A DNA stretch of 64,000 nt, from the NCBI GenBank assembly GCA_046302715.1, contig JBKCHQ010000106.1, positions 2,091 to 66,090 of the forward strand, in the 5' to 3' direction. This document shows positions 1,807-33,867 of the stretch, piece after piece. The notes under the pieces are model-generated. The model was not told the origin of the DNA and did no database searches. It saw only the letters and a program-made list of their open reading frames with translations. Position 1 is the stretch's first letter, and each line of letters begins with the position of its first letter. This stretch comes from Bacteroidia bacterium (GTDB lineage Bacteria > Bacteroidota > Bacteroidia > M30B66). Both the position numbers and the translations under genes were made by a program.

Positions 1807-2751
1807 TTATTCAACCAAGCCGCGGCCTGCTTTAACAATCTTATTCTTCTTCTTATAGTCGGCCACCAATTTATCTAAAATCCCGTTGATGAAGTTTTTA
1901 CTCTGTGGGCTTGAGTAATCTTTAGAAAGTTCTATGTATTCGTCGAGGCTTACTTTGACTGGAATTGACGGAAAGCAGGTTAATTCGCACATGGCCATCT
2001 TCATCAGAATAATGTCCATTTTCGCCACACGCTCTATTTCCCAGTTTTCCGCTTTTTGAGCAATCTCTTTCTCAAAATCCTCGTGATGCAAAATAGTTTG
2101 ACGGTATAATTCAGTCGCAAATTTTCGGTCCTCGTCAGATTCTTTCTGCAATGGCATCAATTTAAAGGCGCACTCTTCCTCCTTTATGTTCCTAATGGTT
2201 TTATAAACGCCATGCTGCATTATTTCAATCTCATCCAGCCAGTAAATGCTTCGCTCCTCCAACATTAATCGAATAAGCTCTGAAGGGAATACATGATGTT
2301 CGTAAATCCAGCAAACCAATTCCTGGTCTTCTTTAAAACTTGGGGCGTTTTTATGGAGATACTCTACAAATACAGCTTCATTGCGAAACTGCATGAAGAT
2401 TTTACGCACTAACTCCTGCTGCCCAATCCAGTTAATTTTAAGCTTATAGAGCTTTTCCTGCAGACCTTCGTGATTGCCTATTTTTTGAATAATGCGATTC
2501 TCAACGAAATTAAGGCTCGGATTTAGATCTTCTGCTGTTGGAAGGTGCTTTTGCCTGCGTTCATGAATGAGATTTTCGGCAGCATCTCTAAATTCAGGAA
2601 GAATAGAAAGATACGTTAAGTAAATCTCATACACCTTGTCGATGCTATGAAACAATTCTTTTTCACCCAGACGCACATCGTCCTGCCCCGACTGAAAAAA
2701 GGCATAAAGCGCTTTAAGTACTTTTTCTCGTATATGCCTTCTGTTGAGCAT
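1807..2751 (-). CDS. nusB: transcription antitermination factor NusB (long Bacteroidota form)
   Basis: The N-terminus RRHIREKVLKALYAFFQSG is the canonical NusB start. Its start lies 2 nt downstream of the ldh-like stop codon. Confidence 0.75.
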   Translation of the reverse strand: MLNRRHIREKVLKALYAFFQSGQDDVRLGEKELFHSIDKVYEIYLTYLSILPEFRDAAENLIHERRQKHLPTAEDLNPSLNFVENRIIQKIGNHEGLQEKLYKLKINWIGQQELVRKIFMQFRNEAVFVEYLHKNAPSFKEDQELVCWIYEHHVFPSELIRLMLEERSIYWLDEIEIMQHGVYKTIRNIKEEECAFKLMPLQKESDEDRKFATELYRQTILHHEDFEKEIAQKAENWEIERVAKMDIILMKMAMCELTCFPSIPVKVSLDEYIELSKDYSSPQSKNFINGILDKLVADYKKKNKIVKAGRGLVE

Positions 2752-17693: not shown

Positions 17694-18425
17694 GTGAGGA
17701 TGTCATCTACAGAAAAGCTATCCATAGTAATACCCGCTTACAACGAAGGCAGAACCATACATTTTATTTTGGATAAAATAAAGGCTGTCGATTTAGTTGG
17801 CAAGATTCAAAAAGAGGTAATTATCGTAAACGATTGTTCGAAAGACAATACGGAAGAAGCGATTCACACCTATATCCAAAACAATCCTGATTTACCCATT
17901 GCATATTTCAAACATGAGTTTAATAAGGGCAAAGGAGCAGCTCTTCATACGGGGATTTCGAAGGCTACCGGTAATTACGTTATCATTCAAGATGCTGATC
18001 TAGAATACGATCCACAGGAATACAATATTCTTTTAAAACCAATCCTGAATGGCTTTGCCGATGTTGTTTATGGTAGTCGCTTTATCGGAGGAAAGCCACA
18101 TCGTATTTTATTTTTCTGGCATACGATAGGCAATCGTTTTCTTACATTTTTATCGAATATGTTCACCAACAAGAACATTACCGACATGGAAACGTGTTAT
18201 AAATTGTTCAGAAGAGAGATTATTCAATCGTTAAAACTGGTTGAAAAACGATTTGGTTTTGAACCGGAGGTTACCGCAAAGATTAGCAGAATTGAGGGCA
18301 TTCGCATCTACGAAGTAGGTATTTCGTATTACGGAAGAACGTACGAGGAAGGTAAAAAAATTGGTTGGAGAGATGGATTCAGAGCTATTTATTGCATCTT
18401 GAAATATGGATTATTCAGGTACTAA
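17694..18425 (+). CDS. GT2 polyprenyl-phosphate glycosyltransferase (DPM-synthase / ArnC-like)
   Basis: [10 protein letters not shown], a DAD motif (QDADLEYDP) and a C-terminal amphipathic tail, as in dolichol-phosphate-mannose-synthase-like enzymes. Confidence 0.8.
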
Positions 18426-18427
18426 GT

Positions 18428-19162
18428 ATGCAATTTGAATACAAGGAAATAGACGAAGAAGGATTAGAAACCTTAAATGCCATCGAAAAGGCAAATAAGT
18501 TTAATCGTTGGATGTATTCTGCTATTCGCCCTTCTTGCAAAGGGAAAATATTAGAAGTTGGTAGTGGAATCGGTAACATCTCGCACTTTTTTTTTGAGGA
18601 AAAGGAAGATATTATTCTAAGCGATATTCGTCAAAACTATTGCGAAAAGCTGCGAAATAAATTTCCCCAAGCCAAGGTGCTCAATTTTGATTTGGTGTCA
18701 CCTGACTTTGATACTGAAATGAAGGAGTACTTCGGTTATTTTGATTCAATATTTGCCTTAAATGTATTAGAGCACATAGAAAACGATCGGCTTGCATTAA
18801 GCAATGCAAAAAAGCTATTGAAGGAAGGAGGTACGCTTATTATTCTCGTTCCCGCGTATCAAAAGCTCTACAATAGATTCGATAAGGAACTTATGCATTT
18901 TAGGCGCTATACTGCATCATCGCTTTGTAGTGTTTTTAGAAAGGCCGGTTTTTCTATCTCGGATAATAAGTACTTTAATTTGATTGGTATAGCTGGTTGG
19001 CTATTTTCTGGGGCTATCCAGAAAAATAAAACTATACCGGCTGAGCAAATGCGCATTTATAATGCTTGCGTACCTATGTTTAAGATATTCGATAATTTGG
19101 TACTGCATAAAATTGGCTTATCCGTAATTGTTGTTGGTACTAATACTGCAACAAAAACATAG
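18428..19162 (+). CDS. class I SAM-dependent methyltransferase
   Basis: SAM-binding motif ILEVGSGIGN. Start placed at the ATG that follows the GT2 stop; the ORF-track start at 18365 lies inside the GT2 gene. Confidence 0.65.
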   Translation: MQFEYKEIDEEGLETLNAIEKANKFNRWMYSAIRPSCKGKILEVGSGIGNISHFFFEEKEDIILSDIRQNYCEKLRNKFPQAKVLNFDLVSPDFDTEMKEYFGYFDSIFALNVLEHIENDRLALSNAKKLLKEGGTLIILVPAYQKLYNRFDKELMHFRRYTASSLCSVFRKAGFSISDNKYFNLIGIAGWLFSGAIQKNKTIPAEQMRIYNACVPMFKIFDNLVLHKIGLSVIVVGTNTATKT

Positions 19163-19173
19163 TTGCTTTTAAA

Positions 19174-20478
19174 ATGAAATATTTCATTCGAATGTGGAAA
19201 GAAAGAAAGTTGGAAATTTTCATCTTTCTATTTTTTACAATGCTTTATTCCATTATAGTATTAAAAACTCAGAGCAATGCTTTAATTGGCGACGAGAACA
19301 GGTATATAGCTCATGCAAAGTGTATTCTCGAAGGCAGATGGACGCCAGAGGATGATGCGATGTGGTTGTGGAATGGCCCGGGTTACCCAATGCTTATTTC
19401 GGGCTTTATGTTAATTTTCAAAGATTTCATTACGCCGGTTAGGCTATTCAATGCATTGTTACTATCCGCTTCAATTGTATTGTTTTATAAAACCGTTTTA
19501 TTGGGGAACCGTAAGAAATGGGCATTCTTATTTACGTCTCTTTTTGCGTTTTATGTGTTGATTTGGAAGAGTTTGCCTTACCTGCTGACCGAAATACTCA
19601 CAATTTTTCTATTGTGTCTTCTTATGTATCAATTCGCCAACTTTAAAAATACACTGCAAAAGTGGCTTTTAGCGGGTCTGACTATCGGTTTTTTATGCAT
19701 GGTTAAATTTGTTTTTGGTTATATAATTTTGTTAATACTGGGAATTTCTGCTGTTTATTATTACTTCAGCCGTAAAGACTCGGCTCGTTTCATCAGAAAT
19801 TCGTTTTTGATGGGTTTTGTTTTTTGTACACCTTGGCTTACCTACACATATGCCTTAACCGGTAAATTTTTGTATTGGGGGGCATCGGGGGGCACCACCA
19901 TTTATTGGATGTCGAACCCAACTCCCCATGAGTATGGCGAATGGATGAATTTTGCGTTTAACTCTTCACTGGGCGTAAAGGGAGCCGAGGAGGGTTATTT
20001 GGCAAGCCATGGGGCAGAAATAAAGCGAATTACTCAAAATTTCCGTCGGGTAGAGCGCGACACAGAATTTAAGAGGGTGGCCATTGAAAATATTAAAAAG
20101 CACCCCAAAAAATACTTGCAAAATGTATGGTGCAACGTAGGTCGCTATTTTTTCAATTATCCGTTCTCTTACTATCCCCAGCAACCCTCCACACTGGTTA
20201 ATGTTTTTATTAATGGTCCAATTTTAGGATTACTTCTTTTATTGTTGATTCCCAGTTTTCGGCGATTTAATGAATTGCCTGCCCATATTCAACTGGGCTT
20301 AATCTTATTTATTATTTACACGGGTGTTTCGATTTTGGTGAGTTCCTATATCCGTATGTTTTATGTTTTCATTCCCATCTTGTTTCTATGGTTTGCATTT
20401 ATGCTGGATAAGGTGAAATTTCAGTGGCCCAGTACTTCCGCTTTTTCGACAAGTGGCAAACCTTCATCTGAAAATTAG
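19174..20478 (+). CDS. GT39/ArnT-like membrane glycosyltransferase (polyprenyl-phosphate-sugar dependent)
   Basis: 434 aa and polytopic. The first periplasmic loop carries a DE-containing motif (IGDENRY) typical of PMT/ArnT-type transferases. Confidence 0.55.
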   Translation: MKYFIRMWKERKLEIFIFLFFTMLYSIIVLKTQSNALIGDENRYIAHAKCILEGRWTPEDDAMWLWNGPGYPMLISGFMLIFKDFITPVRLFNALLLSASIVLFYKTVLLGNRKKWAFLFTSLFAFYVLIWKSLPYLLTEILTIFLLCLLMYQFANFKNTLQKWLLAGLTIGFLCMVKFVFGYIILLILGISAVYYYFSRKDSARFIRNSFLMGFVFCTPWLTYTYALTGKFLYWGASGGTTIYWMSNPTPHEYGEWMNFAFNSSLGVKGAEEGYLASHGAEIKRITQNFRRVERDTEFKRVAIENIKKHPKKYLQNVWCNVGRYFFNYPFSYYPQQPSTLVNVFINGPILGLLLLLLIPSFRRFNELPAHIQLGLILFIIYTGVSILVSSYIRMFYVFIPILFLWFAFMLDKVKFQWPSTSAFSTSGKPSSEN

Positions 20479-22561: not shown

Positions 22562-24412
22562 TTAATGATGGCCTTCTGCCATTTCTTTTTCAGTTAAAGG
22601 CACTGTTTGGGGCACAAAGTCTTCTTCGCGCTCGGGGCGGCTATAATCGTAAGCCCAACGATGCACTTCAGGAATTTCTCCAGGCCAGTTACCGTGAATA
22701 TGCTCCACAGGTGCTGTCCACTCGAGTGTATTCGATTTCCAAGGATTTTGTGTAGCTTTTTGTCCTTTGAAAATACTAAAGAAGAAATTAAAAAGGAATA
22801 TTACTTGTGCACAGCCAGCAAGAATGGCAAACCAGGTAACCATAACATTAATATCCACCAAATCATTGAATAATGGGAACTCAGTATTTGAATAATAACG
22901 GCGAGGTACGCCTGCCATACCTAAAAAGTGCATAGGGAAGAATACACCATAAGCCCCGGCAAAAGTGAGCCAGAAATGCGCATATCCCATTTTTTTATTC
23001 ATAACACGTCCGAATAGTCTCGGAAACCAATGATACACACCCGCAAACATTCCAAATATTGCAGCTGAACCCATCACAAGGTGGAAGTGTGCTACAACAA
23101 AATAGGTGTCATGCAGATTGATATCTAGTGCAGAGTCTCCCAATATTAAACCGGTTACACCACCCGAAATAAAGAACGATACCAATCCAATGGCAAAAAG
23201 CATCGCTGGTGTAAATTGTATGTTACCTTTCCACAATGTGGTGATGTAATTAAAAGCCTTAACTGCAGAAGGGATGGCAATTAAAAGTGTGGTAAATACG
23301 AAAACCGATCCTAAGAATGGATTCATACCCGTAATAAACATGTGGTGCCCCCATACGATAAAGGAGAGGAATGCAATACCTAAAATTGAGGCAATCATAG
23401 CACGGTATCCGAAAATTGGCTTACGAGCGTTTGTTGCGATAACCTCAGAGGTGATTCCTAACGCAGGAAGCAAAACAATGTATACTTCAGGATGGCCAAG
23501 GAACCAAAATAAGTGCTCATATAAAATTGGACTTCCACCATCGTATTCCAGCGCTTTGCCAGCAATATAAATATCGCTTAAATAAAAACTGGTTCCAAAA
23601 CTGCGATCAAAAATTAGTAGCAGTGCAGCAGCGAATAATACTGGGAACGACAGCACCCCAAGAATAGCAGTTACTAGAAATGCCCAAATGGTAAGAGGTA
23701 ATCGGGTCATCGACATCCCTTTAGTACGGAGATTGATAACGGTAACTATGTAGTTAAGTGAGCCTAATAAAGAAGACACAATAAATAACGACATCGAAAC
23801 TAACCATAATGTCATTCCTAAGCCAGAACCTGGCATAGCATCAGGCAATGCACTCAATGGCGGATACACTGTCCAACCTCCTGAGGCCGGGCCACCTTCA
23901 ATTCCTAATGAAAATAACATTACTACACTTGATGCAAAAAAGAACCAAAATGAAAGCATGTTCAAAAATCCAGAAGCCATATCACGTGCTCCAATTTGTA
24001 AGGGGATTAGAAGGTTCGAGAATGTTCCCGATAATCCACCTGTTAATACGAAGAATACCATTATAGTACCGTGTATAGTTACAAGCGCCAAATAAAAATT
24101 AGGATCAAGTACACCACCCGGAGCCCATTTACCTAAGATTGGCTCAAGAATGGGGAAGCTTTTTCCAGGCCATGCGAGTTGTAAACGAAATACTAACGAC
24201 ATGAGCATGGCAAGTACGCCCATAAATACTGCAGTTATAAGAAACTGCTTAGAAATCATTTTGTGATCTTGAGAAAATACATACTTGGTCAGGAAGGTAT
24301 CGTGATGCTCTTCATCATGATCGTGTTCGTGACTGTGTGCATGCTCATGACCGTGCACTAATTCTTCTGCTGCCTGTTCAGCGTGTAAGTTGTTTGTTTC
24401 CATTGCTGACAT
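22562..24412 (-). CDS. ctaD: cytochrome c oxidase subunit I (caa3-type) with His-rich N-terminal extension
   Basis: Twelve-helix core with the conserved YVFSQDHK start, heme and CuB His ligands (HGTIMVFF, WGHHMF). The N-terminus contains HGHEHAHSHEHDHDEEHHD. Confidence 0.9.
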   Translation of the reverse strand: MSAMETNNLHAEQAAEELVHGHEHAHSHEHDHDEEHHDTFLTKYVFSQDHKMISKQFLITAVFMGVLAMLMSLVFRLQLAWPGKSFPILEPILGKWAPGGVLDPNFYLALVTIHGTIMVFFVLTGGLSGTFSNLLIPLQIGARDMASGFLNMLSFWFFFASSVVMLFSLGIEGGPASGGWTVYPPLSALPDAMPGSGLGMTLWLVSMSLFIVSSLLGSLNYIVTVINLRTKGMSMTRLPLTIWAFLVTAILGVLSFPVLFAAALLLIFDRSFGTSFYLSDIYIAGKALEYDGGSPILYEHLFWFLGHPEVYIVLLPALGITSEVIATNARKPIFGYRAMIASILGIAFLSFIVWGHHMFITGMNPFLGSVFVFTTLLIAIPSAVKAFNYITTLWKGNIQFTPAMLFAIGLVSFFISGGVTGLILGDSALDINLHDTYFVVAHFHLVMGSAAIFGMFAGVYHWFPRLFGRVMNKKMGYAHFWLTFAGAYGVFFPMHFLGMAGVPRRYYSNTEFPLFNDLVDINVMVTWFAILAGCAQVIFLFNFFFSIFKGQKATQNPWKSNTLEWTAPVEHIHGNWPGEIPEVHRWAYDYSRPEREEDFVPQTVPLTEKEMAEGHH

Positions 24413-24444
24413 ATCTACCTCGTTTTTATTATTTAGTGTAACAA

Positions 24445-25470
24445 TTACTTAAGCTCTGTGTTCTGATTTAAGCTACTATTTTCCGCAGTCTGTTTCGCTT
24501 CAGATTTTTTTTGAGCCCAGGTTTTCTGCTCTGAAAGCCATTTGTTATATTCTTCCTTCGTTTCAACTATGATATCCATCTGCATATTGAAGTGTGATGC
24601 TCCGCAGATTTTATTGCAAAGCAACACATAATTGAATTTAGGATTCTTCAATTTGCTGCGCATTTCAGCAGTGGTAATTGTTGGAGTAAATTCAAACATG
24701 GTTTCCATGCCAGGCACACAGTTCATTTGAGCCCTGAAATGCGGCATGTACGCACTATGTATAACATCACGAGATCGAAATTTGAATTGCACAGGTTGTC
24801 CTTTAACCAAGTGTAATTCTCCTTTTACAATAACGTCGTCGTTAGACTTTACATCATCTATCAGACCTAAATCGTTTCCTTCACCAATAGTTCTAAAATC
24901 ATAAGCACCAAGTTTATTGTCATTACCCGCATAGCGGGCAGTCCAATCAAATTGCTTGGAATATAACTCCACCACCATTGCATTTTTATCGCCTGGATAA
25001 ATTACATCGTTCCATACGGTTAATCCGTAAGCAATAAGGCCGGTAAGTACAATAGCAGGTATAACCGTCCAGATTAATTCGAGTTTGTTGCTATGTGCAA
25101 AGTGTACCGCACGATTTCCCTTTTTACCTGCGTACTTGTAGGTTTGGTAAATCATGATGATATGAGTCCCAACAAAAACAATGGTAATAAGTGCTAATGT
25201 GACATTAAAAAGTTTGTCAATTTCAGGGCCATGTGCAGAGGCTGCCTCAGGTAAAATTTTGTCTTTGTACGCAAATAACTGCCAAATACAAAACACAAAA
25301 AATGCAGTAAGGAAATACACCCACATATTACCTTGGTTGCGATTGTCGGAGTCGGTAATGGTTTCATCGCTCCTTTTATCTCTAAGTTCGGCCGATAGCG
25401 CAGCAATACTCATTACACGCACAACGGTAAGAACAAACAAAACAATTACGGCTAAAATCAAGTAAGTCAT
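24445..25470 (-). CDS. coxB: cytochrome c oxidase subunit II
   Basis: Two N-terminal transmembrane helices and the CuA motif CNKICGASHFNM. Confidence 0.85.
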   Translation of the reverse strand: MTYLILAVIVLFVLTVVRVMSIAALSAELRDKRSDETITDSDNRNQGNMWVYFLTAFFVFCIWQLFAYKDKILPEAASAHGPEIDKLFNVTLALITIVFVGTHIIMIYQTYKYAGKKGNRAVHFAHSNKLELIWTVIPAIVLTGLIAYGLTVWNDVIYPGDKNAMVVELYSKQFDWTARYAGNDNKLGAYDFRTIGEGNDLGLIDDVKSNDDVIVKGELHLVKGQPVQFKFRSRDVIHSAYMPHFRAQMNCVPGMETMFEFTPTITTAEMRSKLKNPKFNYVLLCNKICGASHFNMQMDIIVETKEEYNKWLSEQKTWAQKKSEAKQTAENSSLNQNTELK

Positions 25471-25502
25471 ATAAAAGGTCGGCTCGTTAAAATCTTAAAA
25501 AG

Positions 25503-26684
25503 TTAAATATGGTGATGCACACTTTCTTGGTAGAAAACGTGATTTGGATTATTGACTGGCTTACTCGCCAATCGTGAGAAAACTACATAGCAAAACAAAC
25601 CAATAAAACCAAGCATGGTCCCGATTTCCATCCATCCAAGGTGCCAATGATCTTTCAAAACACCAGGCGTGATCATTACAAAATTGTCGCTCCAGTGTCC
25701 GATTAAAATTACCACTCCCACTACTTTTAAAAGTCCATAGGTTCTTTTTGAACCTCGCTTCATTAAAACCAAGAATGGGAAGAAAAAGTTCAGTACGAGA
25801 TTAAATATAAATAAGAACTTATAATTCTCGAAACGGTCCATGAAGTAGGTTACTTCCTCAGGAATATTGGAATACCAAATGAGCATAAACTGCGAAAACC
25901 ATAAATACGTCCAAAAAACCGAGAATGCAAACATGAACTTTCCTAAGTCATGAATATGGTTATCGTTTACTTCAGGTAGAAGTCCTTTTGATTTTAGGTG
26001 CAATACAATCAAAGTGATGGTAGTTATTGCACTAACAAAGAACCCTGCAAAAGTGTACCATCCGAATAACGTAGAGAACCAGTGGGTATCAATGGACATA
26101 ATCCAATCCCATGCTGAGGTTGATGATGTTACGGCAAAAAATACTAAAAACCACGCGGCTAAACTTTGACTGCGTTTCCAGTTTTGATAATCATAACCTT
26201 GCATTTCCAATTCAGAACGTTTCATAAATGCTCTGAAAAATAGTATCCAGCCAGCCAAATAAACAATAGTGCGGATAATATAGAAAACCGGATTCAAAAA
26301 AGCAGCTTTACCCGCAATGATGGCATCATAATGTTCGCTTTTAGGGTCGTGAACATGAGGATCGGCCCAATGGTAAATATGATTAACGTGGAGGGCTGAT
26401 AATATAACAACTACTCCAAATATTGCTGCACCAACTGGTAAAAAACTGGCAACTGCTTCCATTGGGCGTTTCACAGTTGCCGACCAACCAGCTTCAGCTG
26501 CATATTGAACGGCCATAAAAAACAAGGCTCCTAAACCCAATGCCATGAAGAAAAATGAATTATGTAGGAGTGTAGGCCATGCCCTATGAGAGTCCACGAT
26601 GAAGCCGCTTACTATCGTCAGCAAACCAACGCCCATGAGAACCATACATATTTTCTTAAACGAGTCTGAAAAGGTGTAATTCAT
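25503..26684 (-). CDS. actF: alternative complex III subunit ActF (NrfD-like membrane subunit)
   Basis: 393-aa polytopic protein. Sits between actE and coxB as in Bacteroidota ACIII-caa3 operons. Confidence 0.65.
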   Translation of the reverse strand: MNYTFSDSFKKICMVLMGVGLLTIVSGFIVDSHRAWPTLLHNSFFFMALGLGALFFMAVQYAAEAGWSATVKRPMEAVASFLPVGAAIFGVVVILSALHVNHIYHWADPHVHDPKSEHYDAIIAGKAAFLNPVFYIIRTIVYLAGWILFFRAFMKRSELEMQGYDYQNWKRSQSLAAWFLVFFAVTSSTSAWDWIMSIDTHWFSTLFGWYTFAGFFVSAITTITLIVLHLKSKGLLPEVNDNHIHDLGKFMFAFSVFWTYLWFSQFMLIWYSNIPEEVTYFMDRFENYKFLFIFNLVLNFFFPFLVLMKRGSKRTYGLLKVVGVVILIGHWSDNFVMITPGVLKDHWHLGWMEIGTMLGFIGLFCYVVFSRLASKPVNNPNHVFYQESVHHHI

Positions 26685-26714
26685 TGTATTTGAATTGAAT
26701 TGTCCTTGTTTAAA

Positions 26715-27407
26715 TTATTTATCTTTCTTTGTTTTAGCTGGTTTCTCTTTCGTTGCAGCCAATGAATCTGATTTTACTGCCGAGGAATCTGTTGAAGCGC
26801 TTAAGCTTGTTCCGAGTCCTTCGGCTCTCAATTTTTTCACATATTGAATAACTGCCCAGCGCTCTCCAAAATTAATTTGCGATGCATGACTGCCCATCAT
26901 ATTTTTCCCATAATAGATGGTATGATACATTTTACCTTCCGGCAAATCTTTAAGTGCGGCACTGTAGTATGATGGCACGCCAGCAAATTTATCTCGTTGA
27001 ACAAGAGTACCGTTACCATCCCCTTTTTCGCCATGGCAGTGTATGCAAAAATTTGAATATACTGTCTTGCCTTTTTCAAGGATGGCTTCGGTGGCTTGAT
27101 ATTGCGAAGGAGCTTTTACATTTTGACCGGCAGCTTCGTAGCCTTCATTAGTGTTGGGATAAAGATATTGCTCGTGGTAAGGCAATGTTTCTTCATTGAA
27201 GCGCGGAACGGTTCCTGCTACAGGTTTCATCGAACTACCTTCCTTGCTAAAAGGACTTTCACCATAAGCTTCATAGGCCGTTCCTCTGTACATATCGGGC
27301 ATGTACTCAAGTCCCGGACTCAGCGGATTTGATGTGCACGATTCCATCACGGCCGCCAACATTATAAGTCCGGCAGCACTTAAAATCAGATATTGGGATG
27401 TTCTCAT
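26715..27407 (-). CDS. actE: alternative complex III subunit ActE (monoheme cytochrome c lipoprotein)
   Basis: Lipobox (AAVMESC) and a single CIHCHG heme-binding motif. Confidence 0.7.
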   Translation of the reverse strand: MRTSQYLILSAAGLIMLAAVMESCTSNPLSPGLEYMPDMYRGTAYEAYGESPFSKEGSSMKPVAGTVPRFNEETLPYHEQYLYPNTNEGYEAAGQNVKAPSQYQATEAILEKGKTVYSNFCIHCHGEKGDGNGTLVQRDKFAGVPSYYSAALKDLPEGKMYHTIYYGKNMMGSHASQINFGERWAVIQYVKKLRAEGLGTSLSASTDSSAVKSDSLAATKEKPAKTKKDK

Positions 27408-27416
27408 CAGATGCGA

Positions 27417-27953
27417 TTATTTCAAATCTTTTTGGTTAATTTCAAGAGCTCCGGTGCTGCGTAGGGTTGATATTATTTCATCATGACTCACTCGCTTGTT
27501 ATCTGCAGTTTGAATTTCCATAATGAATTTATCGTCGGTCGAACGTGGGTCTGGATTATGAGCTTTTCTCCCTGGATAAATTTTATTTACCAGTAAGTAG
27601 CTAAGTACCATACCATGTGCTGCACAAAAAACGGTTAATTCGAAAGTAACCGGAACAAATGCCGGCATGTTTAAATACCAGGCAAAGCTAGGCTTACCTC
27701 CTATGTTCATGGGCCAGTCATGGATCATCATATACCATGTCATTAATACTGCCATCGAGGTGCCAAACATCCCGTAAAAGAAGGCTGCATTTGATAAGCG
27801 GGTGGGTTTAATCCCAATTACTGGGTCAAGTCCGTGAATTGGGAATGGTGAAAATACATCCTTTATTTTCACTCCTTTTCCTCTTAATGCTTTAGCGCTG
27901 GAAATTAAAATTTCCTCATCGTCAAAAACGCCGTATATAACTTGTTTGCTCAT
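27417..27953 (-). CDS. actD: alternative complex III subunit ActD
   Basis: 178 aa with one transmembrane helix, positioned between actC and actE. Confidence 0.6.
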   Translation of the reverse strand: MSKQVIYGVFDDEEILISSAKALRGKGVKIKDVFSPFPIHGLDPVIGIKPTRLSNAAFFYGMFGTSMAVLMTWYMMIHDWPMNIGGKPSFAWYLNMPAFVPVTFELTVFCAAHGMVLSYLLVNKIYPGRKAHNPDPRSTDDKFIMEIQTADNKRVSHDEIISTLRSTGALEINQKDLK

Positions 27954-27959
27954 GATCGA

Positions 27960-29336
27960 TTAGTGATGCGGTGGTTTGGGATTTTCACTGGTAGATTTTA
28001 GAATAGTCTTCAATTCGTTCAATGCAATAACAGGGAACGTACGAGAGAATATCAAGAATAAAGTGAAGAAAATACCTATAGTTCCTATGAAAATTCCGAT
28101 ATCTACAAAAGTAGGGTGGAACATTGTCCAACTTGAAGGCAGGTAGTCACGGTGAAGTGATGTTACGATAATCACGAAGCGCTCGAACCACATCCCAATA
28201 TTTACAAAAATTGAAATAATAAAGGTGGCAAGTAGGCTTTTTCTGATCTTTTTAAACCAGAATAACTGCGGTGTGATTACGTTACACGTCATCATTGACC
28301 AATACGACCACAAATATGGTCCTGTGGCTCGTTTTAGAAATGCATATTGTTAATATTCAACTCCCGAGTACCAAGAGACAAACAACTCGGTCAAATAAGC
28401 AACACCCACTATAGATCCTGTTATGATAATGATTTTATTCATTGATTCCACGTGGGTAATGGTGATGTAATCTTCCAAATTACACACTTTACGCATGATA
28501 ATAAGAAGCGTAAGTACCATTGCAAATCCAGAGAAAATGGCCCCTGCAACGAAATACGGTGGAAAAATTGTAGTATGCCAGCCCGGTATTACTGAAGTAG
28601 CAAAGTCCATAGATACGATGGTGTGAACCGAAAGTACTAGTGGTGTTGAAAGACCCGCAAGTACTAAAGATACTTCTTCGAATCGTGACCATTGTTTAGC
28701 AGATCCTGACCATCCAAAGGAAAGAATACTGTAAATTTTACGTAATCTTGGTTTGGTTTGGCGATCACGAATAGTAGCAAAATCAGGTATTAATCCTGTA
28801 TACCAGAATACAAGTGATACGGTAAAATAGGTCGAAATCGCAAATACGTCCCAAAGAAGAGGTGAATTAAAGTTAACCCACAATGACCCGAATTGATTTG
28901 GAAGTGGCAATACCCAGTATGCCATCCATACGCGACCCATGTGCATTACAGGAAACAGCGCCGCACAGATCACCGCGAAAATGGTCATGGCCTCGGCCGA
29001 ACGGTTAATAGACATTCTCCACCGCTGACGGAAAAGCAAAAGAATAGCAGAAATGAGTGTACCGGCGTGACCTATACCTACCCACCATACGAAATTGGTG
29101 ATGTCCCATGCCCACCCTACTGTCTTATTTAATCCCCAAACCCCTATACCTGTGCCTATCGTATAGGCAAAGCAGGCTACGCCCCACAAGGCAAGTAATG
29201 CAGAAATGGTAAATACCACTTTAAACATTCCGTTAGCTTTACCTTCAACAGGTCTGGAAATGTCTTCTGTAATCTGATGGTAGGTTTTAGTTCCTAAAAT
29301 CAGTGGCTCTCTAACCGATGGTGTATGATGTGCCAT
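27960..29336 (-). pseudogene. actC: alternative complex III subunit ActC (NrfD/PsrC-like quinol-binding membrane subunit) interrupted by one in-frame TAA at 28350..28352
   Basis: ORFs 28350..29336 and 27960..28313 share one frame on the minus strand. They are separated by a single stop and 12 sense codons. Together (328 + 12 + 117 aa) they match the expected ~450-aa ActC, with the WFERF segment in the downstream piece. Confidence 0.55.
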
Positions 29337-29361
29337 AAAACGTTATATCGATTGTATTTCG

Positions 29362-32300
29362 TTAAGCTTTTGAATTTTTTGCCGTATTGCGCACTTTAGT
29401 GAGGTAGTAAACTGACGGCTGCGTTCCTACTTCCTCTAGAAGTTGATATTTACGATCGTCGTTCCATGCTTTTCTTACCATTGATTTTTCATCATTAAAG
29501 TCGCCAAAAATGATAGCATTAGTAGGACACGATTGTTGACATGCAGTTTTAATACTGCCATCTTTCGGACGTTCACCTTTTTTCTTCGCCTGTAGTTTTC
29601 CAGCCTGTACACGCTGAACACACATAGAGCATTTTTCCATAACCCCACGACTGCGCACGGTAACATCAGGGTTGAGCACCATTTTGCCCATATCGTCGTA
29701 CATGTTGAAGTCAAACTGCTCGTTTTCGTTGTAGCGGAACCAATTAAATCGACGCACTTTATATGGACAGTTGTTTGCACAATAACGTGTACCAATGCAA
29801 CGGTTATACGTCATCTGGTTAAGTCCTTCGAGTGAGTGTGTAGTGGCCAATACTGGACAAACCGTTTCACAGGGAGCTTGATTACAGTGCTGACACATCA
29901 CTGGTTGGAATACTACCTCTAGTGTGTCACCCGTTGACGGTACTTCCATTTTAAGGAATTTGTCAATCGCACCAATACCCTCTTTTTCGGCCCGTTCTTC
30001 ATTCATGTCGCTGGTGTAATATCGATCTATGCGCATCCAGTGCATTTCACGACTGCGACGTACTTCGTCCTTGCCTACAACAGGCACATTATTTTCGGCG
30101 GTACAACTTACTACACATGATCCACACCCAATACACGAGTTAAGATCAATGGCCATATTCCAAAAATGGTTCTTATATTCGAAGTTATCCCACAAATCGA
30201 GCTCTTGAGGCGTTGCTTTGCCGTCCTTACCTACCTTCGAGGAGTTTGTAGCAAGTAGAATTTGTTCGTTACCTGCTTTTGAATTTTTCTTGTATTCTTC
30301 AAGTGTTGTTTCTTTTACAATGCTTCTACCCATCATGGTATGGTGGGTTTGCGTTGCAGCTATATGATATGTTCCTGTACTTCCTGAAACTGTTACTTTA
30401 GAAACAATATAGCTAAAGTTTCCATTAGCGGTTCCCACAAATTTAAAAGCGTTGCCTCCGATTCCGTTGGCAGTTTTACCTGCAGCTGTGCGTCCATATC
30501 CAACTGCTGCTGCTACTACACCTTTGGGTAGTCCTGGTTGCGCAACTACCGGAAGCGAAATTTTAGCTCCACCAGAAACTGAAATCTCTACAACATTGGA
30601 CAATTGCTCCTGACCCATCAAAACGTTGAAGCCTTTAGATGTCATTTCATCTGGGTTCATCAACAAGTAATTATCCCATGTTACGCGGGTAATTGGATCG
30701 GGTAATTCTTGCAGCCATGGATTATTGGCTTGAGATCCCCATCCCATTCCTGTTTTCTCATAAATGACCATTTCAACTCCACCGGTCTGTGCTGCAATTC
30801 CGGCTATGGCTTGAGCCGCAGTTGAAACATCCATTTTAGGAGTTGTTTCTGTAGGTTTTTCTTCGGATTTAACAGGCTCCTGCTTCACCAATTTAGACTC
30901 AACATTTTTCGTGTTTTCAGCTTCTTGGGACTTTGTTTCCGTTGCTTTTACCTTAGTAAGAGCTCCATCATGCAATGTTTTATTCCAAAATTCTGTAAAT
31001 CCGCCGACGTATGCGTCACCCACCGAAGGAAATAAATTAGTTTCCCAATACTTAGCTACGTAATCGTGAGCATTTGAGTTATTGCCTGACCATGTCAAAA
31101 ACGATTCTATGGTTTGGCGGGTATTCCCTAATGGATTAATCACAGGTTGACCCAATGAATAATGCCCTGTTCTAGGATTTGCATCAGACCAACTTTCTAA
31201 GTAATGATGCGATGCCGCTACATACTTGCACTGCTTGGCAGTTTCATCCAAAGTATCGCTGAGCGAAACAGATAAATCGATTTTGCCTATAAGTTTAGCA
31301 AGTTCTTCGCCATTTGGTAGAGAATACACAGGATTAGCTCCTACCACAAACAAGGCAGAAACTTTCTGAGCCTTAATTTCTTCGATAAGTGCGATAACTT
31401 CTTTATCGTTACCTTGACGTGTATTATCTTGAATGTCTTTATTTATGGTTGTACCATAAGATCCCAAGTGATTATTGATGGCATTTACTACCAGTTGAAT
31501 GTTGGGATCATTTATTCCACAAACAACAAGTGCTTTGTTTTTATGAGCAGCCAATTCTGATGCCACCTTAGCAACAGCCGAATCTTGTCCTGTTTTACCC
31601 GAAGAGTGACTTGATCCTGTTAATGCGTTTAGGAGCATTACGGCAGCAGTTCCTAGTTCTGATGGTTTTAAGGCAATGCGCTTATCGGCATTTGAACCGG
31701 TTAAAGTAAGTAGCGATTCAATCTGAATATGTCGCGACATATTAGGATTATCTTTACTTACCTTCCTTTTGGTCGCATATTGGCGAGCATATTCAACTGG
31801 TGATAACCAATTGGCTAAAAAGTCACAACCAATTCCAACAATATAATCAGCTTTATCAAAATTATAAGTTGGTATCATGGCTTTACCATGCGAAATAGCA
31901 TGTGCATCAGCAATGGCTCTTTGAGAAACCGCATCATAAGAAATGATTTTGGTGCCTGTATATTTAGTACTAAACTCAGTAAGTGCCGCATTCATAGAAG
32001 GGCTTATCTGAGTTGAAGTGAGGATGCGAATGGCTCCACCCGAAGCAGCAATAGACGTTAATTTACTCTTCACGTCGGCATCGATGGTTTTCCAATCGGT
32101 GTCTTTGCCTTCTTTCATTGGTTTACGCAAGCGTGCAGAATCGTATAACGACAATACAGAAGCCTGCATGCGAGCATTACTACCACCTTGTGTGATGGTG
32201 CACAATTCATTTCCATCTACTTTAATTGGGCGACCTTCGCGGGTTTTTACAACTAGTCCTGCGTAATCTTGCCCGTCCCAATAGGAAGTAGCATAATAAT

Positions 32301-32574
32301 TGGCTACTCCAGGAGTAATTTCCTCAGGTTTGTTAAGGTAAGGAATAGCTTTTCTAACAGGAGCTTCGCACGCTGCCAATGAAGCAGCTGTAACACTAAA
32401 GCCCAAAACTTTAAGAAAATCGCGTCGGTTGGTTTGAGTAGAAACCACCTGCTCGTCTCCTAAAAAGCGATCAACAGGAAGCTCTTCAGCAAACTCATTG
32501 TGCTTTTGGTTTAAAAACTCAGGCGTTTCCTTAAGTTCTTCTATTCCTTTCCAGTATTTTTTCGAATTGCTCAT
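29362..32574 (-). CDS. actB: alternative complex III subunit ActB (molybdopterin-like and 4Fe-4S iron-sulfur subunit)
   Basis: 1070 aa with a Tat signal (RRDFLKVLGFSVTAASLAAC) and ferredoxin-like cysteine clusters (CIGCGSCVVSC, CQHCNQAPCETVCP, CIGTRYCANNCP). Confidence 0.9.
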   Translation of the reverse strand: MSNSKKYWKGIEELKETPEFLNQKHNEFAEELPVDRFLGDEQVVSTQTNRRDFLKVLGFSVTAASLAACEAPVRKAIPYLNKPEEITPGVANYYATSYWDGQDYAGLVVKTREGRPIKVDGNELCTITQGGSNARMQASVLSLYDSARLRKPMKEGKDTDWKTIDADVKSKLTSIAASGGAIRILTSTQISPSMNAALTEFSTKYTGTKIISYDAVSQRAIADAHAISHGKAMIPTYNFDKADYIVGIGCDFLANWLSPVEYARQYATKRKVSKDNPNMSRHIQIESLLTLTGSNADKRIALKPSELGTAAVMLLNALTGSSHSSGKTGQDSAVAKVASELAAHKNKALVVCGINDPNIQLVVNAINNHLGSYGTTINKDIQDNTRQGNDKEVIALIEEIKAQKVSALFVVGANPVYSLPNGEELAKLIGKIDLSVSLSDTLDETAKQCKYVAASHHYLESWSDANPRTGHYSLGQPVINPLGNTRQTIESFLTWSGNNSNAHDYVAKYWETNLFPSVGDAYVGGFTEFWNKTLHDGALTKVKATETKSQEAENTKNVESKLVKQEPVKSEEKPTETTPKMDVSTAAQAIAGIAAQTGGVEMVIYEKTGMGWGSQANNPWLQELPDPITRVTWDNYLLMNPDEMTSKGFNVLMGQEQLSNVVEISVSGGAKISLPVVAQPGLPKGVVAAAVGYGRTAAGKTANGIGGNAFKFVGTANGNFSYIVSKVTVSGSTGTYHIAATQTHHTMMGRSIVKETTLEEYKKNSKAGNEQILLATNSSKVGKDGKATPQELDLWDNFEYKNHFWNMAIDLNSCIGCGSCVVSCTAENNVPVVGKDEVRRSREMHWMRIDRYYTSDMNEERAEKEGIGAIDKFLKMEVPSTGDTLEVVFQPVMCQHCNQAPCETVCPVLATTHSLEGLNQMTYNRCIGTRYCANNCPYKVRRFNWFRYNENEQFDFNMYDDMGKMVLNPDVTVRSRGVMEKCSMCVQRVQAGKLQAKKKGERPKDGSIKTACQQSCPTNAIIFGDFNDEKSMVRKAWNDDRKYQLLEEVGTQPSVYYLTKVRNTAKNSKA

Positions 32575-32607
32575 ACTCAGATGAAAGTACAGTTTGAATG
32601 ATTGGGA

Positions 32608-33867
32608 TTAGTAATGGCACTTAGAGCATTCCAATCCACCGATTGATCCAATGGTGAATTTGTCTCCTTTTTTGTATTTAGGATCGTTGACAAACTCCTT
32701 GTGAAGTTCTTCGTAGTATTTATTGTCTTTGAAATCCACTTCCGTTTTTCTGTGGCAGTCAATACACCAACCCATCGTGAGCGGCGCATGCTGCTTAACC
32801 ACTTCCATGGAGTCAATGGCTCCGTGACATTCGGTACATTCAATCTTACCAACAGCTACGTGCTGACTGTGGTTAAAATATGCATGATCAGGCAATGAAT
32901 GCACGCGAATCCATTGAATGGGCTTTTTATTATTGCCGTATTGCCGTGTTTCTGGGTTATAGTCTAGGGCTGCATATATTTTCGAAATCTCCTCCTTACC
33001 ATATTGAGGGCCTTCCTGTATATACATATGACAATTCATGCACACATTTGCTGAGGGAATATTGGCATGTTTCGATTTTTCAACACCGCTGTGGCAATAC
33101 ACACAAGCGATTTTATTATCTCCTGCATGTAATTTATGAGAGAATTTAATAGGTTGCTCTGGGGCATATCCTTGGTAAACGCCAATTCCCATCAATCCGT
33201 CCCACCCTTGTTTTAATACCCATACAACTACTAAAAGCCCTAATACAGCTACAATTTTTTTGTTATTAGCAGCCCAAACTTTAAAATTACCCCAATTGCC
33301 GTAATTCGGTTTTTCAATTGTTTCAATCCCTTTCTTCTCATTAACCAGCGCTTCAAGTGACTTCTTAACTGAATTAAGAACGGTAACGAGTATGAGCAAT
33401 ATAACTGCAACTACAATAAGAATAAGAGAATAATTAGTTCCAGAATCACCATTAGCCGCTCCCTTGTTAGCTCCATCTGCTTGCGCAGTAGTTGCAGCAG
33501 GGGCATCTCCACCTTTATCGGCCCAGTCAATAATGGCAATTATTTCAGCATCAGATAAGTTTTGCGCCGGCATCACCGATTTTCCATACTCCTCGAAAAG
33601 CTTATTAGCATAAGCATCGCCTGTTGAAAGATAGGCAACCGAGTTTTTTACCCAAGCGGTAAGCTTAGCGTTGTCAGACCAATTACCTCTGCCTCGAACC
33701 CCCTTCAAGCCAGGCCCGACTAGTTTTTGGTCGCTTGGTTTATGACAAGAGGCACAATTAGCTTTAAATAATTTAGCTGCATCCTGAGCTTGAATAACGT
33801 TAAGATGGAGCATGAAGCCCAACAATAGGGCGAATGACTTTATAGTCCTTGAGTTCAATTTTCGCAT
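32608..33867 (-). CDS. actA: alternative complex III subunit ActA (multi-heme cytochrome c)
   Basis: Six CxxCH motifs (CASCH, CVYCH, CMNCH, CTECH, CIDCH, CSKCH) and an N-terminal signal peptide. First gene of the operon. Confidence 0.85.
   Translation of the reverse strand: MRKLNSRTIKSFALLLGFMLHLNVIQAQDAAKLFKANCASCHKPSDQKLVGPGLKGVRGRGNWSDNAKLTAWVKNSVAYLSTGDAYANKLFEEYGKSVMPAQNLSDAEIIAIIDWADKGGDAPAATTAQADGANKGAANGDSGTNYSLILIVVAVILLILVTVLNSVKKSLEALVNEKKGIETIEKPNYGNWGNFKVWAANNKKIVAVLGLLVVVWVLKQGWDGLMGIGVYQGYAPEQPIKFSHKLHAGDNKIACVYCHSGVEKSKHANIPSANVCMNCHMYIQEGPQYGKEEISKIYAALDYNPETRQYGNNKKPIQWIRVHSLPDHAYFNHSQHVAVGKIECTECHGAIDSMEVVKQHAPLTMGWCIDCHRKTEVDFKDNKYYEELHKEFVNDPKYKKGDKFTIGSIGGLECSKCHY

What the first reader, a model, noticed from the sequence alone, without database searches (positions are those of the whole stretch)
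27960..29336. actC of the alternative complex III operon is split by a single in-frame TAA
The ORF track gives two minus-strand ORFs, 28350..29336 (328 aa) and 27960..28313 (117 aa). Their top coordinates fall in the same codon phase, so they are in one frame, separated only by the TAA at 28350..28352 and 12 sense codons. The upstream piece is the N-terminal NrfD/PsrC-like transmembrane region. The downstream piece carries the conserved WFERF segment and the C-terminal helices. Together they reconstitute a full-length ~450-aa ActC. Every other gene of the actABCDEF-coxBA unit is intact. TAA is used as a normal stop elsewhere in the window, for example after exbD and the T9SS thioredoxin gene, so a reassigned genetic code is unlikely. 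This is either a recent nonsense mutation in a core respiratory gene, a sequencing or assembly error, or a genuinely two-piece ActC. ACIII is the only visible quinol:cytochrome c route feeding the adjacent caa3 oxidase, so a true knockout would have physiological consequences.
Basis: partly seen in the sequence, partly recalled or inferred. Interest (0 to 1): 0.55.

Follow-up and report, generated by a model that had tools for sequence, protein, structure and literature searches.

The report
Private stop codon breaking actC
One stop codon splits an otherwise ordinary respiratory gene (actC of alternative complex III) in this metagenome-assembled genome, but strains of the same species carry the gene intact, and the stop sits in a tight cluster of four odd base changes, so it is a local sequence error or a very recent private mutation and not a new gene arrangement.

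Summary
Two minus-strand ORFs, 28350..29336 and 27960..28313, lie in one frame. A single TAA at 28350..28352 (codon 329) separates them, and together they read as a 458-aa ActC. The best solved relative is Flavobacterium johnsoniae ACIII subunit C (6BTM_C, E 3.6e-243).

It is not a natural split. All 118 listed homologues in which the motif could be located have Glu at this codon, and the full-length ones run 456-487 aa, with one of 568 aa. Three independent contigs of the same species (98.9-99.9% nucleotide identity) cover the patch. Two reach codon 329, read GAA there and carry an intact 458-aa gene. The third starts inside the patch and shows the ancestral TGG at codon 342.

The TAA is one of four changes private to the window, all within 41 bp: 28352, 28341, 28332 and 28312. 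All four are transversions, and three are G:C>T:A. Three hit residues conserved across the family: E329*, N335K and W342L. Everywhere else in the operon, differences between strains are synonymous or conservative.

The source is a GenBank MAG. Its protein accession numbers skip ActC, so it was probably already annotated as a pseudogene.

The likeliest cause is a local consensus or sequencing artefact (~0.55). The main rival is a genuine, very recent clustered mutation (~0.35). A functional two-piece ActC or recoding is very unlikely. Interest is low.

The parts
27960..29336 (-). actC (NrfD/PsrC-like quinol-binding membrane subunit of alternative complex III), 458 codons plus its terminal TAA, interrupted at codon 329
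   Evidence: One search gives the translation. One search finds homologues at 98% identity and 458 aa. One search gives 6BTM_C (E 3.6e-243) and 6F0K_C (E 3.5e-182). One search shows Pfam NrfD on the N piece.
28350..28352 (-). In-frame TAA at codon 329, replacing GAA/GAG (Glu). The G>T change (coding strand) is at window position 28352.
   Evidence: Searches show GAA in same-species contigs L009/L022 and L010, and GAA/GAG in eight more distant loci. One search shows Glu in 118 of 118 homologues. The codon aligns with R. marinus ActC Glu338, a residue of the proposed periplasmic proton half-channel.
28312..28352 (-). 41-bp cluster of four changes private to the window, given on the coding strand: 28352 G>T (E329*), 28341 T>A (synonymous, Ala332), 28332 C>A (N335K), 28312 G>T (W342L, which creates the TTG 'start' of ORF2)
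   Evidence: The window differs from every same-species contig covering these sites: L010 and L022 at all four, and L011 at 28312. Six of the 19 window-versus-L022 mismatches in 14,891 bp fall within 57 bp (28296..28352). The Poisson tail is 1.9e-10 per 57-bp window, or 2.9e-6 after correction for position.
28350..29336 (-). N-terminal ORF (328 aa), holding seven strong hydrophobic segments (about TMH1-7) that include the first four-helix bundle
   Evidence: TMH numbering follows the R. marinus structure description and is an inference.
27960..28313 (-). C-terminal ORF (117 aa from the mutant TTG), holding about TMH8-10 and the WFERF motif. E385/R386 correspond to R. marinus Glu394/Arg395.
22562..33867 (-). 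Operon context, all other genes intact: actA (32608..33867), actB (29362..32574), actC, actD (27417..27953), actE (26715..27407), actF (25503..26684), coxB (24445..25470), coxA (22562..24412)
   Evidence: Searches give the family hits. Searches show the same gene order and lengths in relatives. One search shows no internal stops, TAA terminators and gaps of 6-33 bp.

Best explanation
The split is a private local lesion in this one metagenome-assembled genome and not a feature of the organism's lineage. A single local event changed four bases within 41 bp of an otherwise ordinary, strongly conserved actC. One change turned Glu329 (GAA) into TAA. The others gave N335K, W342L and one silent change. 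The most likely origin is an error in the deposited consensus. Such an error could come from a stretch built from poor or damaged reads, or from a spot where the assembler switched between co-occurring strains. On this reading the living population makes a normal full-length ActC. Shown: the lesion is private to the window, clustered and unselected, and same-species strains are intact. Inferred: it arose in sequencing or assembly and not in the cell.
For: (1) Two same-species contigs from independent samples read GAA and encode an intact 458-aa ActC: L009/L022 (SRR31534983, 99.87% identity over 14.9 kb) and L010 (ERZ28619986). A third, L011 (ERZ27247987), begins at window position 28331 and shows the ancestral TGG at codon 342. 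(2) The TAA is one of four window-private changes in 41 bp. All four are transversions and three are G:C>T:A, a pattern typical of oxidative-damage or base-calling errors (my own background knowledge). Six of the 19 mismatches against L022 fall within 57 bp, corrected P about 3e-6. (3) Three of the four hit conserved residues: E in 118/118, N in 118/118 and W in 113/118 homologues. In the rest of the act-cox operon nearly all differences between strains are synonymous, and the four amino-acid changes are conservative I/V or K/R swaps. The changes therefore never passed through selection. (4) The window has no other private change anywhere in actC, so this is not slow decay after pseudogenisation. 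(5) The patch also carries two alleles shared with L010 (28344, 28296), while the flanks resemble L022. That mosaic fits a strain switch in the consensus. (6) The source is a MAG, on a 68,083-bp contig. (7) No public assembly holds the 328-aa, 117-aa or 111-aa products. Pattern scans with N at the stop position found only GAA.
Against: The rest of the contig looks accurate. There are no indels over 27 kb against twelve same-species contigs. Where the other differences can be judged, they behave like natural polymorphism. A 68-kb contig implies reasonable coverage, and several reads would then have to share all four errors. Small SNP clusters occur naturally elsewhere in this population, for example 2172..2188 and 29575..29620, though those are mostly synonymous. 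An ACIII knock-out is viable in F. johnsoniae, so a real lesion is biologically possible. No reads could be inspected.
Confidence: 0.55

Rival explanations
1. Genuine, very recent clustered mutation. One multi-nucleotide event, such as an error-prone repair patch or clustered oxidative lesions, hit actC in the strain that dominated this sample. That strain would have a pseudogenised actC and no ACIII-caa3 branch, and would respire through another quinol oxidase.
For: The assembly is otherwise clean, with zero indels over 27 kb. Nonsense changes at consensus level are usually real in well-covered assemblies (background knowledge). F. johnsoniae delta-actA is viable, though slower, thanks to a bd oxidase. 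The absence of any other damage in the operon fits a very young lesion. Contig L011 from another sample ends at 28331, one base from private site 28332, which might mark an assembly-graph branch, meaning real polymorphism, at that site. This last point is weak.
Against: Four substitutions in 41 bp from one natural event is very rare. The allele is absent from every other public assembly searched. It would disable a protein kept at 98% amino-acid identity while synonymous sites diverged to 81% nucleotide identity, so it should be removed quickly by selection. L011 carries TGG at 28312, so any branch there would not be the window's haplotype.
Confidence: 0.35
2. Short recombination import from a divergent or decayed donor copy (gene conversion) brought in the patch, including the stop.
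For: The 57-bp patch is about 10% diverged from L022 and is flanked by L022-like sequence. It contains two alleles shared with L010. SNP micro-clusters elsewhere suggest short imports do occur.
Against: A functional donor would contribute mainly synonymous changes. Here three of the four private changes are radical, and none of the stop, K335 or L342 occurs in the 118 homologues. No donor sequence carrying the mutant 12-mers or longer exists elsewhere in the window. The rest of the genome could not be searched.
Confidence: 0.05
3. A functional two-piece ActC. The N piece (TMH1-7) and a C piece re-initiated at the new TTG (codon 342) or at ATG348 assemble into a working subunit. Alternatively, the TAA is read through or recoded.
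For: W342L creates a TTG start 13 codons after the stop. Two of the other changes add A upstream of it. The C piece is otherwise perfectly conserved.
Against: No homologue is split. Same-species strains are unsplit. Residues 330-341, among them the invariant Y331, A332, F333, R336, A337, G339 and Y341, would be missing from both pieces. K335 and L342 replace conserved residues. TAA ends all eight operon genes and 38 of 56 ORFs. There is no suppressor tRNA in the window. UAA is the least leaky stop codon (background knowledge). No split gene products are on record in other assemblies.
Confidence: 0.03

Closest known systems
ActC of Flavobacterium johnsoniae alternative complex III (PDB 6BTM chain C)
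   Same: Aligned over residues 2-452 at E 3.6e-243. The conserved motifs match, including YSGVEYEQYAFLNRATGPYWW and WFERF. The operon layout is the same, actABCDEF followed by coxBA.
   Different: The window copy has TAA in place of the Glu of the YEQY motif, plus K for N and L for W nearby. The reference protein is a single 466-aa chain.
ActC of Rhodothermus marinus ACIII (PDB 6F0K chain C; Sousa et al. 2018, PMC5928083)
   Same: The fold family is the same: ten TMHs, two four-helix bundles, and helix 7a between TMH7 and TMH8. Window codon 329 aligns with Glu338, and E385/R386 align with Glu394/Arg395 of the proposed periplasmic proton half-channel.
   Different: It is more distant (E 3.5e-182) and is an intact single chain.
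Ordinary nonsense pseudogenes and consensus errors in metagenome-assembled genomes
   Same: A single internal stop in a conserved gene, private to one assembly. The annotation pipeline gave it no protein accession, as inferred from the accession gap MFN5318123 to MFN5318124.
   Different: The stop comes with three further private transversions within 41 bp, which is denser than a simple point mutation.

Membership tests
ActC (alternative complex III subunit C, NrfD/PsrC-like) | Full-length sequence similarity to structurally characterised ActC | tested here: met
   6BTM_C at E 3.6e-243 over residues 2-452. 6F0K_C, 6LOD_C and 8K9E_C also match.
ActC (alternative complex III subunit C, NrfD/PsrC-like) | NrfD-family membrane domain with about ten transmembrane helices | tested here: met
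   Pfam PF03916 on the N piece; nine strong hydrophobic segments, plus a weaker one at about 343-360.
ActC (alternative complex III subunit C, NrfD/PsrC-like) | Genomic context actA-actB-actC-actD-actE-actF, often followed by a caa3 oxidase | tested here: met
   Searches identify a multihaem cytochrome c, a TAT-variant molybdopterin-like/FeS ActB, PF11821 ActD, a monohaem cytochrome c, CoxB and CoxA. Synteny is the same in L001-L009.
ActC (alternative complex III subunit C, NrfD/PsrC-like) | Uninterrupted reading frame that encodes one polypeptide | tested here: not met
   TAA at codon 329. The requirement is met in the two same-species contigs that span the gene, L009/L022 and L010.
Naturally split (two-gene) ActC | Orthologues in related genomes split at the same position | tested here: not met
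   Among the 120 best homologues, 117 are full length (116 of 456-487 aa and one of 568 aa) and 3 are shorter (386-406 aa), probably cut off at contig ends. Glu is present in all 118 where the motif could be located. Same-species contigs are intact.
Stop-codon reassignment or programmed readthrough | TAA found inside many conserved genes, or a suppressor tRNA or recoding signal | tested here: not met
   TAA terminates 38 of 56 ORFs and all eight operon genes. No other act/cox gene has an internal stop. The only tRNA in the window is tRNA-Pro.
Old pseudogene under relaxed selection | Extra unselected changes spread across the gene or operon | tested here: not met
   All private actC changes lie within 41 bp. 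The remaining 1336 bp of actC have no private change against L022.

The most novel reading that the evidence does not exclude
The four clustered changes act together to convert actC into two translationally separate genes: a stop at codon 329, a new TTG start at codon 342 and an A-enriched leader between them. This strain would then assemble ACIII from a 7-helix piece and a 3-helix piece, cutting the second four-helix bundle at helix 7a.
Probability: 0.02. Interest if true: 0.55.

Novelty: not a real feature. Interest (0 to 1): 0.1.

Why it matters
It matters little. If it is an artefact, it is a reminder that internal stops in MAG consensus sequences should be checked against reads and same-species contigs before any physiology is inferred. 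If it is real, it is a young, strain-private knock-out of the ACIII-caa3 branch. That branch is dispensable in at least one flavobacterium that has a bd oxidase. Neither reading changes what is known about ACIII architecture or the genetic code. The useful methodological point is that exact-protein look-ups of neighbouring genes retrieved same-species contigs, and these settled the 'natural split' question directly.

Tried and rejected
1. Natural two-gene ActC was rejected. Homologues and same-species contigs are unsplit.
2. Code reassignment and suppression were rejected.
3. Old pseudogene decay was rejected. There is no other private change in actC, and the operon is intact.
4. I looked for a gene-conversion or template-switch donor inside the window. 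No 12-mer or longer spanning the mutant bases occurs elsewhere. The rest of the genome was not available.
5. I searched for the TAA allele elsewhere.
   - Two genome-contig scans found nothing at all, so the species is apparently not represented there.
   - Of two metagenome-contig scans, the 48-mer found nothing. The 26-mer found eight distant relatives, all with GAA.
   - Exact look-ups of the 328-aa, 117-aa and 111-aa products found nothing.
6. I tried to fetch the window's own contig record through ActB and ActA. ActB is not in the position index. ActA returned only a 3.4-kb Logan contig that does not reach actC.
7. I tested whether the window carries other unselected private changes, which would point to genome-wide error or a mutator.
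   - In IF-2 at residue 404, the window has the ancestral allele.
   - The three private NusB substitutions lie at positions that vary across the family, so they are uninformative.
8. The promoter and terminator scan around the break found nothing above shuffle expectation.

Full report
**1. The observation**

The ORF list and the sequence show two minus-strand ORFs, 28350..29336 (328 aa, ATG) and 27960..28313 (117 aa, TTG). Translating 27960..29336 in one frame gives 459 codons with a single internal stop. That stop is TAA at 28350..28352, codon 329. Twelve sense codons follow it before the TTG. The description is accurate.

**2. What the gene is**

With X at the stop, the joined translation finds thousands of homologues.
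- The best are 458 aa and 98% identical over 100% of the query.
- Against solved structures, the best match is subunit C of the Flavobacterium johnsoniae alternative complex III (6BTM_C, E 3.6e-243, residues 2-452).
- ActC of Rhodothermus marinus, Roseiflexus and a further species follow.

The neighbouring genes fit an ACIII operon:
- a multihaem cytochrome c (ActA);
- a 1070-aa TAT-variant molybdopterin-like/FeS protein (ActB);
- PF11821 ActD;
- a monohaem cytochrome c (ActE);
- a 393-aa ORF with no family hit, in the ActF position;
- CoxB and CoxA.

Related contigs show the same order and gene lengths. All eight genes end in TAA, and only actC has an internal stop. TAA is the commonest terminator in the window, at 38 of 56 ORFs. 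The only tRNA in the window is tRNA-Pro. A changed genetic code is therefore excluded.

**3. Which residue is replaced, and where it lies in the protein**

In an alignment with 18 homologues, the stop replaces a Glu in the motif YSGVEY-E-QYAFLNRATGPYWW. A motif search over the 120 listed homologues found the motif in 118 of them:
- E at this position in 118 of 118;
- N at position 335 in 118 of 118;
- W at position 342 in 113 of 118.

From the alignment to 6F0K_C (offset +9), codon 329 corresponds to R. marinus ActC Glu338. Sousa et al. (PMC5928083) list that residue in the proposed periplasmic proton half-channel. They list it together with Glu394/Arg395, which correspond to E385/R386 of the WFERF motif in the C-terminal piece.

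Hydropathy places seven strong hydrophobic segments before the stop. The remaining ones, about TMH8-10, come after it. The break therefore falls right after TMH7, in the region described as helix 7a. The helix numbering is my inference.

**4. Is the split natural?**

No. Of the 120 best homologues, 116 are 456-487 aa and one is 568 aa. The other three (386-406 aa) are probably fragments cut off at contig ends.

An exact-sequence look-up of the window's ActD and ActE proteins retrieved contigs of the same species from independent samples.
- L009/L022 (Logan SRR31534983) is 99.87% identical over 14.9 kb.
- L010 (ERZ28619986) is 98.9% identical.
- L011 (ERZ27247987) is 99.6% identical.
- L012 and L013 do not reach the site.

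L009/L022 and L010 each carry an intact 458-aa actC with GAA at codon 329. L011 begins at 28331 and has the ancestral TGG at codon 342.

More distant relatives are about 81% identical at the nucleotide level but 97-98% identical in amino acids. They have GAA or GAG. ActC has clearly been under very strong purifying selection.

**5. The stop is part of a cluster**

Against L022 the window has 19 mismatches in 14,891 bp. Six of them lie in the 57 bp from 28296 to 28352. The Poisson tail is 1.9e-10 for one such window, and 2.9e-6 after correction for position.
- Two of the six, 28344 and 28296, are shared with L010 and are ordinary silent polymorphisms.
- The other four are private to the window against every contig that covers them.

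| Window position | Change (coding strand) | Effect |
|---|---|---|
| 28352 | G>T | E329* |
| 28341 | T>A | GCT>GCA, silent |
| 28332 | C>A | N335K |
| 28312 | G>T | W342L |

All four are transversions, and three are G:C>T:A. The last change creates the TTG that the ORF track reported as the start of the second ORF.

The other differences among strains in the act-cox operon look quite different. Almost all are third-position synonymous changes. The four that change an amino acid are conservative I/V or K/R swaps. No other private change exists anywhere in actC.

The cluster therefore looks like one local event that never passed through selection. It does not look like gradual decay after pseudogenisation. 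It also does not look like an import from a functional relative, which would bring mostly silent differences. No donor for the mutant patch exists elsewhere in the window.

**6. Where the window comes from**

Exact look-ups of eight window proteins place them on a 68,083-bp contig of a GenBank MAG named 'Bacteroidia bacterium'. The protein accessions run in gene order:
- QueG, MFN5318117;
- CoxB, ..120;
- ActE, ..122;
- ActD, ..123;
- ActB, ..124;
- ActA, ..125;
- NusA, ..128.

No number is left for ActC between ActD and ActB. The annotators' pipeline evidently produced no protein for it, which suggests it is already flagged as a pseudogene. This is inferred from the numbering and was not read from the record.

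The split products are not on record in any other public assembly. Pattern scans that left the stop position open found nothing in one-genome-per-species contigs. In JGI metagenomes they found only distant relatives with GAA.

**7. Artefact or real?**

This cannot be decided without reads, so I weigh the two.

In favour of an artefact:
- The density of the cluster and its transversion bias.
- Three hits on conserved residues.
- The mosaic look of the patch, with L010-like alleles inside L022-like flanks.
- The MAG origin.
- The absence of the allele anywhere else.

In favour of a real lesion:
- The contig is otherwise clean. It has no indels over 27 kb against twelve same-species contigs.
- Where other differences could be polarised or judged, they look natural. 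At IF-2 residue 404 the window has the ancestral allele. The NusB private changes sit at variable positions.
- A 68-kb contig implies decent coverage.
- Loss of ACIII is tolerated in F. johnsoniae, where delta-actA grows more slowly but survives on a bd oxidase (PMC8552683).
- One weak hint: contig L011 ends exactly one base from private site 28332, which could mark a graph branch there. However, L011 carries TGG at 28312 and so is not the window's haplotype.

I put an artefact at about 0.55 and a real recent clustered mutation at about 0.35. A conversion import from a decayed copy gets about 0.05. A functional two-piece or read-through ActC gets about 0.03.

The two-piece idea has one curious point in its favour, because the cluster creates both a stop and a downstream start. 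Against it, twelve residues would be missing from both pieces, among them the invariant Y331, A332, F333, R336, A337, G339 and Y341. No relative is split either.

If the lesion is real, the truncated protein lacks TMH8-10 and the E/R pair of the proton half-channel, so ACIII would be non-functional. The 387 nt of untranslated mRNA could also cause Rho-dependent polarity on actDEF-coxBA. That last point is an inference and was not tested.

**8. Comparison with known systems, and verdict**

The locus is a standard Bacteroidota ACIII-caa3 operon whose actC meets every membership test except an uninterrupted frame. The interruption is private to one MAG consensus. This is either not a real biological feature or an ordinary young pseudogene. 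Interest is low, at 0.1.

Noticed in passing
window 28311..28313 (codon 342 of actC): The TTG that the ORF track gives as the start of the 117-aa ORF is itself a private mutation (TGG>TTG, W342L). With the ancestral sequence, the first possible start after the stop would be ATG at codon 348.
   Followed up: yes
L011 (ERZ27247987 k141_1134724), whose end maps to window 28331: This same-species MEGAHIT contig ends exactly one base from private site 28332 (N335K). That could mark an assembly-graph branch, meaning real polymorphism at that site in another sample, or it could be a chance coverage break. L011 carries the ancestral TGG at 28312.
   Followed up: partly
window 2172..2188 (nusB-like gene 1807..2751) and 29575..29620 (actB): Small SNP clusters between same-species contigs occur elsewhere: four differences in 17 bp against L029, and five in 46 bp against L010. 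They are mostly or entirely synonymous. Short recombination tracts or local rate heterogeneity therefore seem normal in this population. The actC cluster differs in being made of radical changes.
   Followed up: partly
window 1807..2751 (314-aa NusB-domain protein): The window has three amino-acid changes, N102Y, P126A and G194C, against both L029 and the 99%-identity cluster representative P0186. All three are transversions and all lie at positions that vary across the family.
   Followed up: yes
window 17694..20478: Gene content varies between queG and the GT2 glycosyltransferase. A 434-aa ORF with no Pfam hit (19174..20478) is present in the window, L022, L005 and L008, and absent in L001 and L004. 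A methyltransferase gene next to it (ORF 18365..19162; 244 aa in L022) was seen only in the window and L022.
   Followed up: no
window 25503..26684: The ORF in the ActF position (393 aa mechanically; called as 347-393 aa in relatives) has no Pfam or NCBIfam hit. Yet ActF is a structural homologue of ActC, and the ActC query only weakly touches 6F0K_F and 8K9E_F (E about 1e-4). The family seems poorly covered by profile libraries.
   Followed up: no
whole window; GenBank proteins MFN5318117..MFN5318128: The window belongs to a 68,083-bp contig of a GenBank MAG labelled 'Bacteroidia bacterium'. The protein accession series skips ActC between ActD (..123) and ActB (..124), which suggests the depositor's annotation already treats actC as a pseudogene. 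The species was not found in the one-genome-per-species collection with two patterns.
   Followed up: partly
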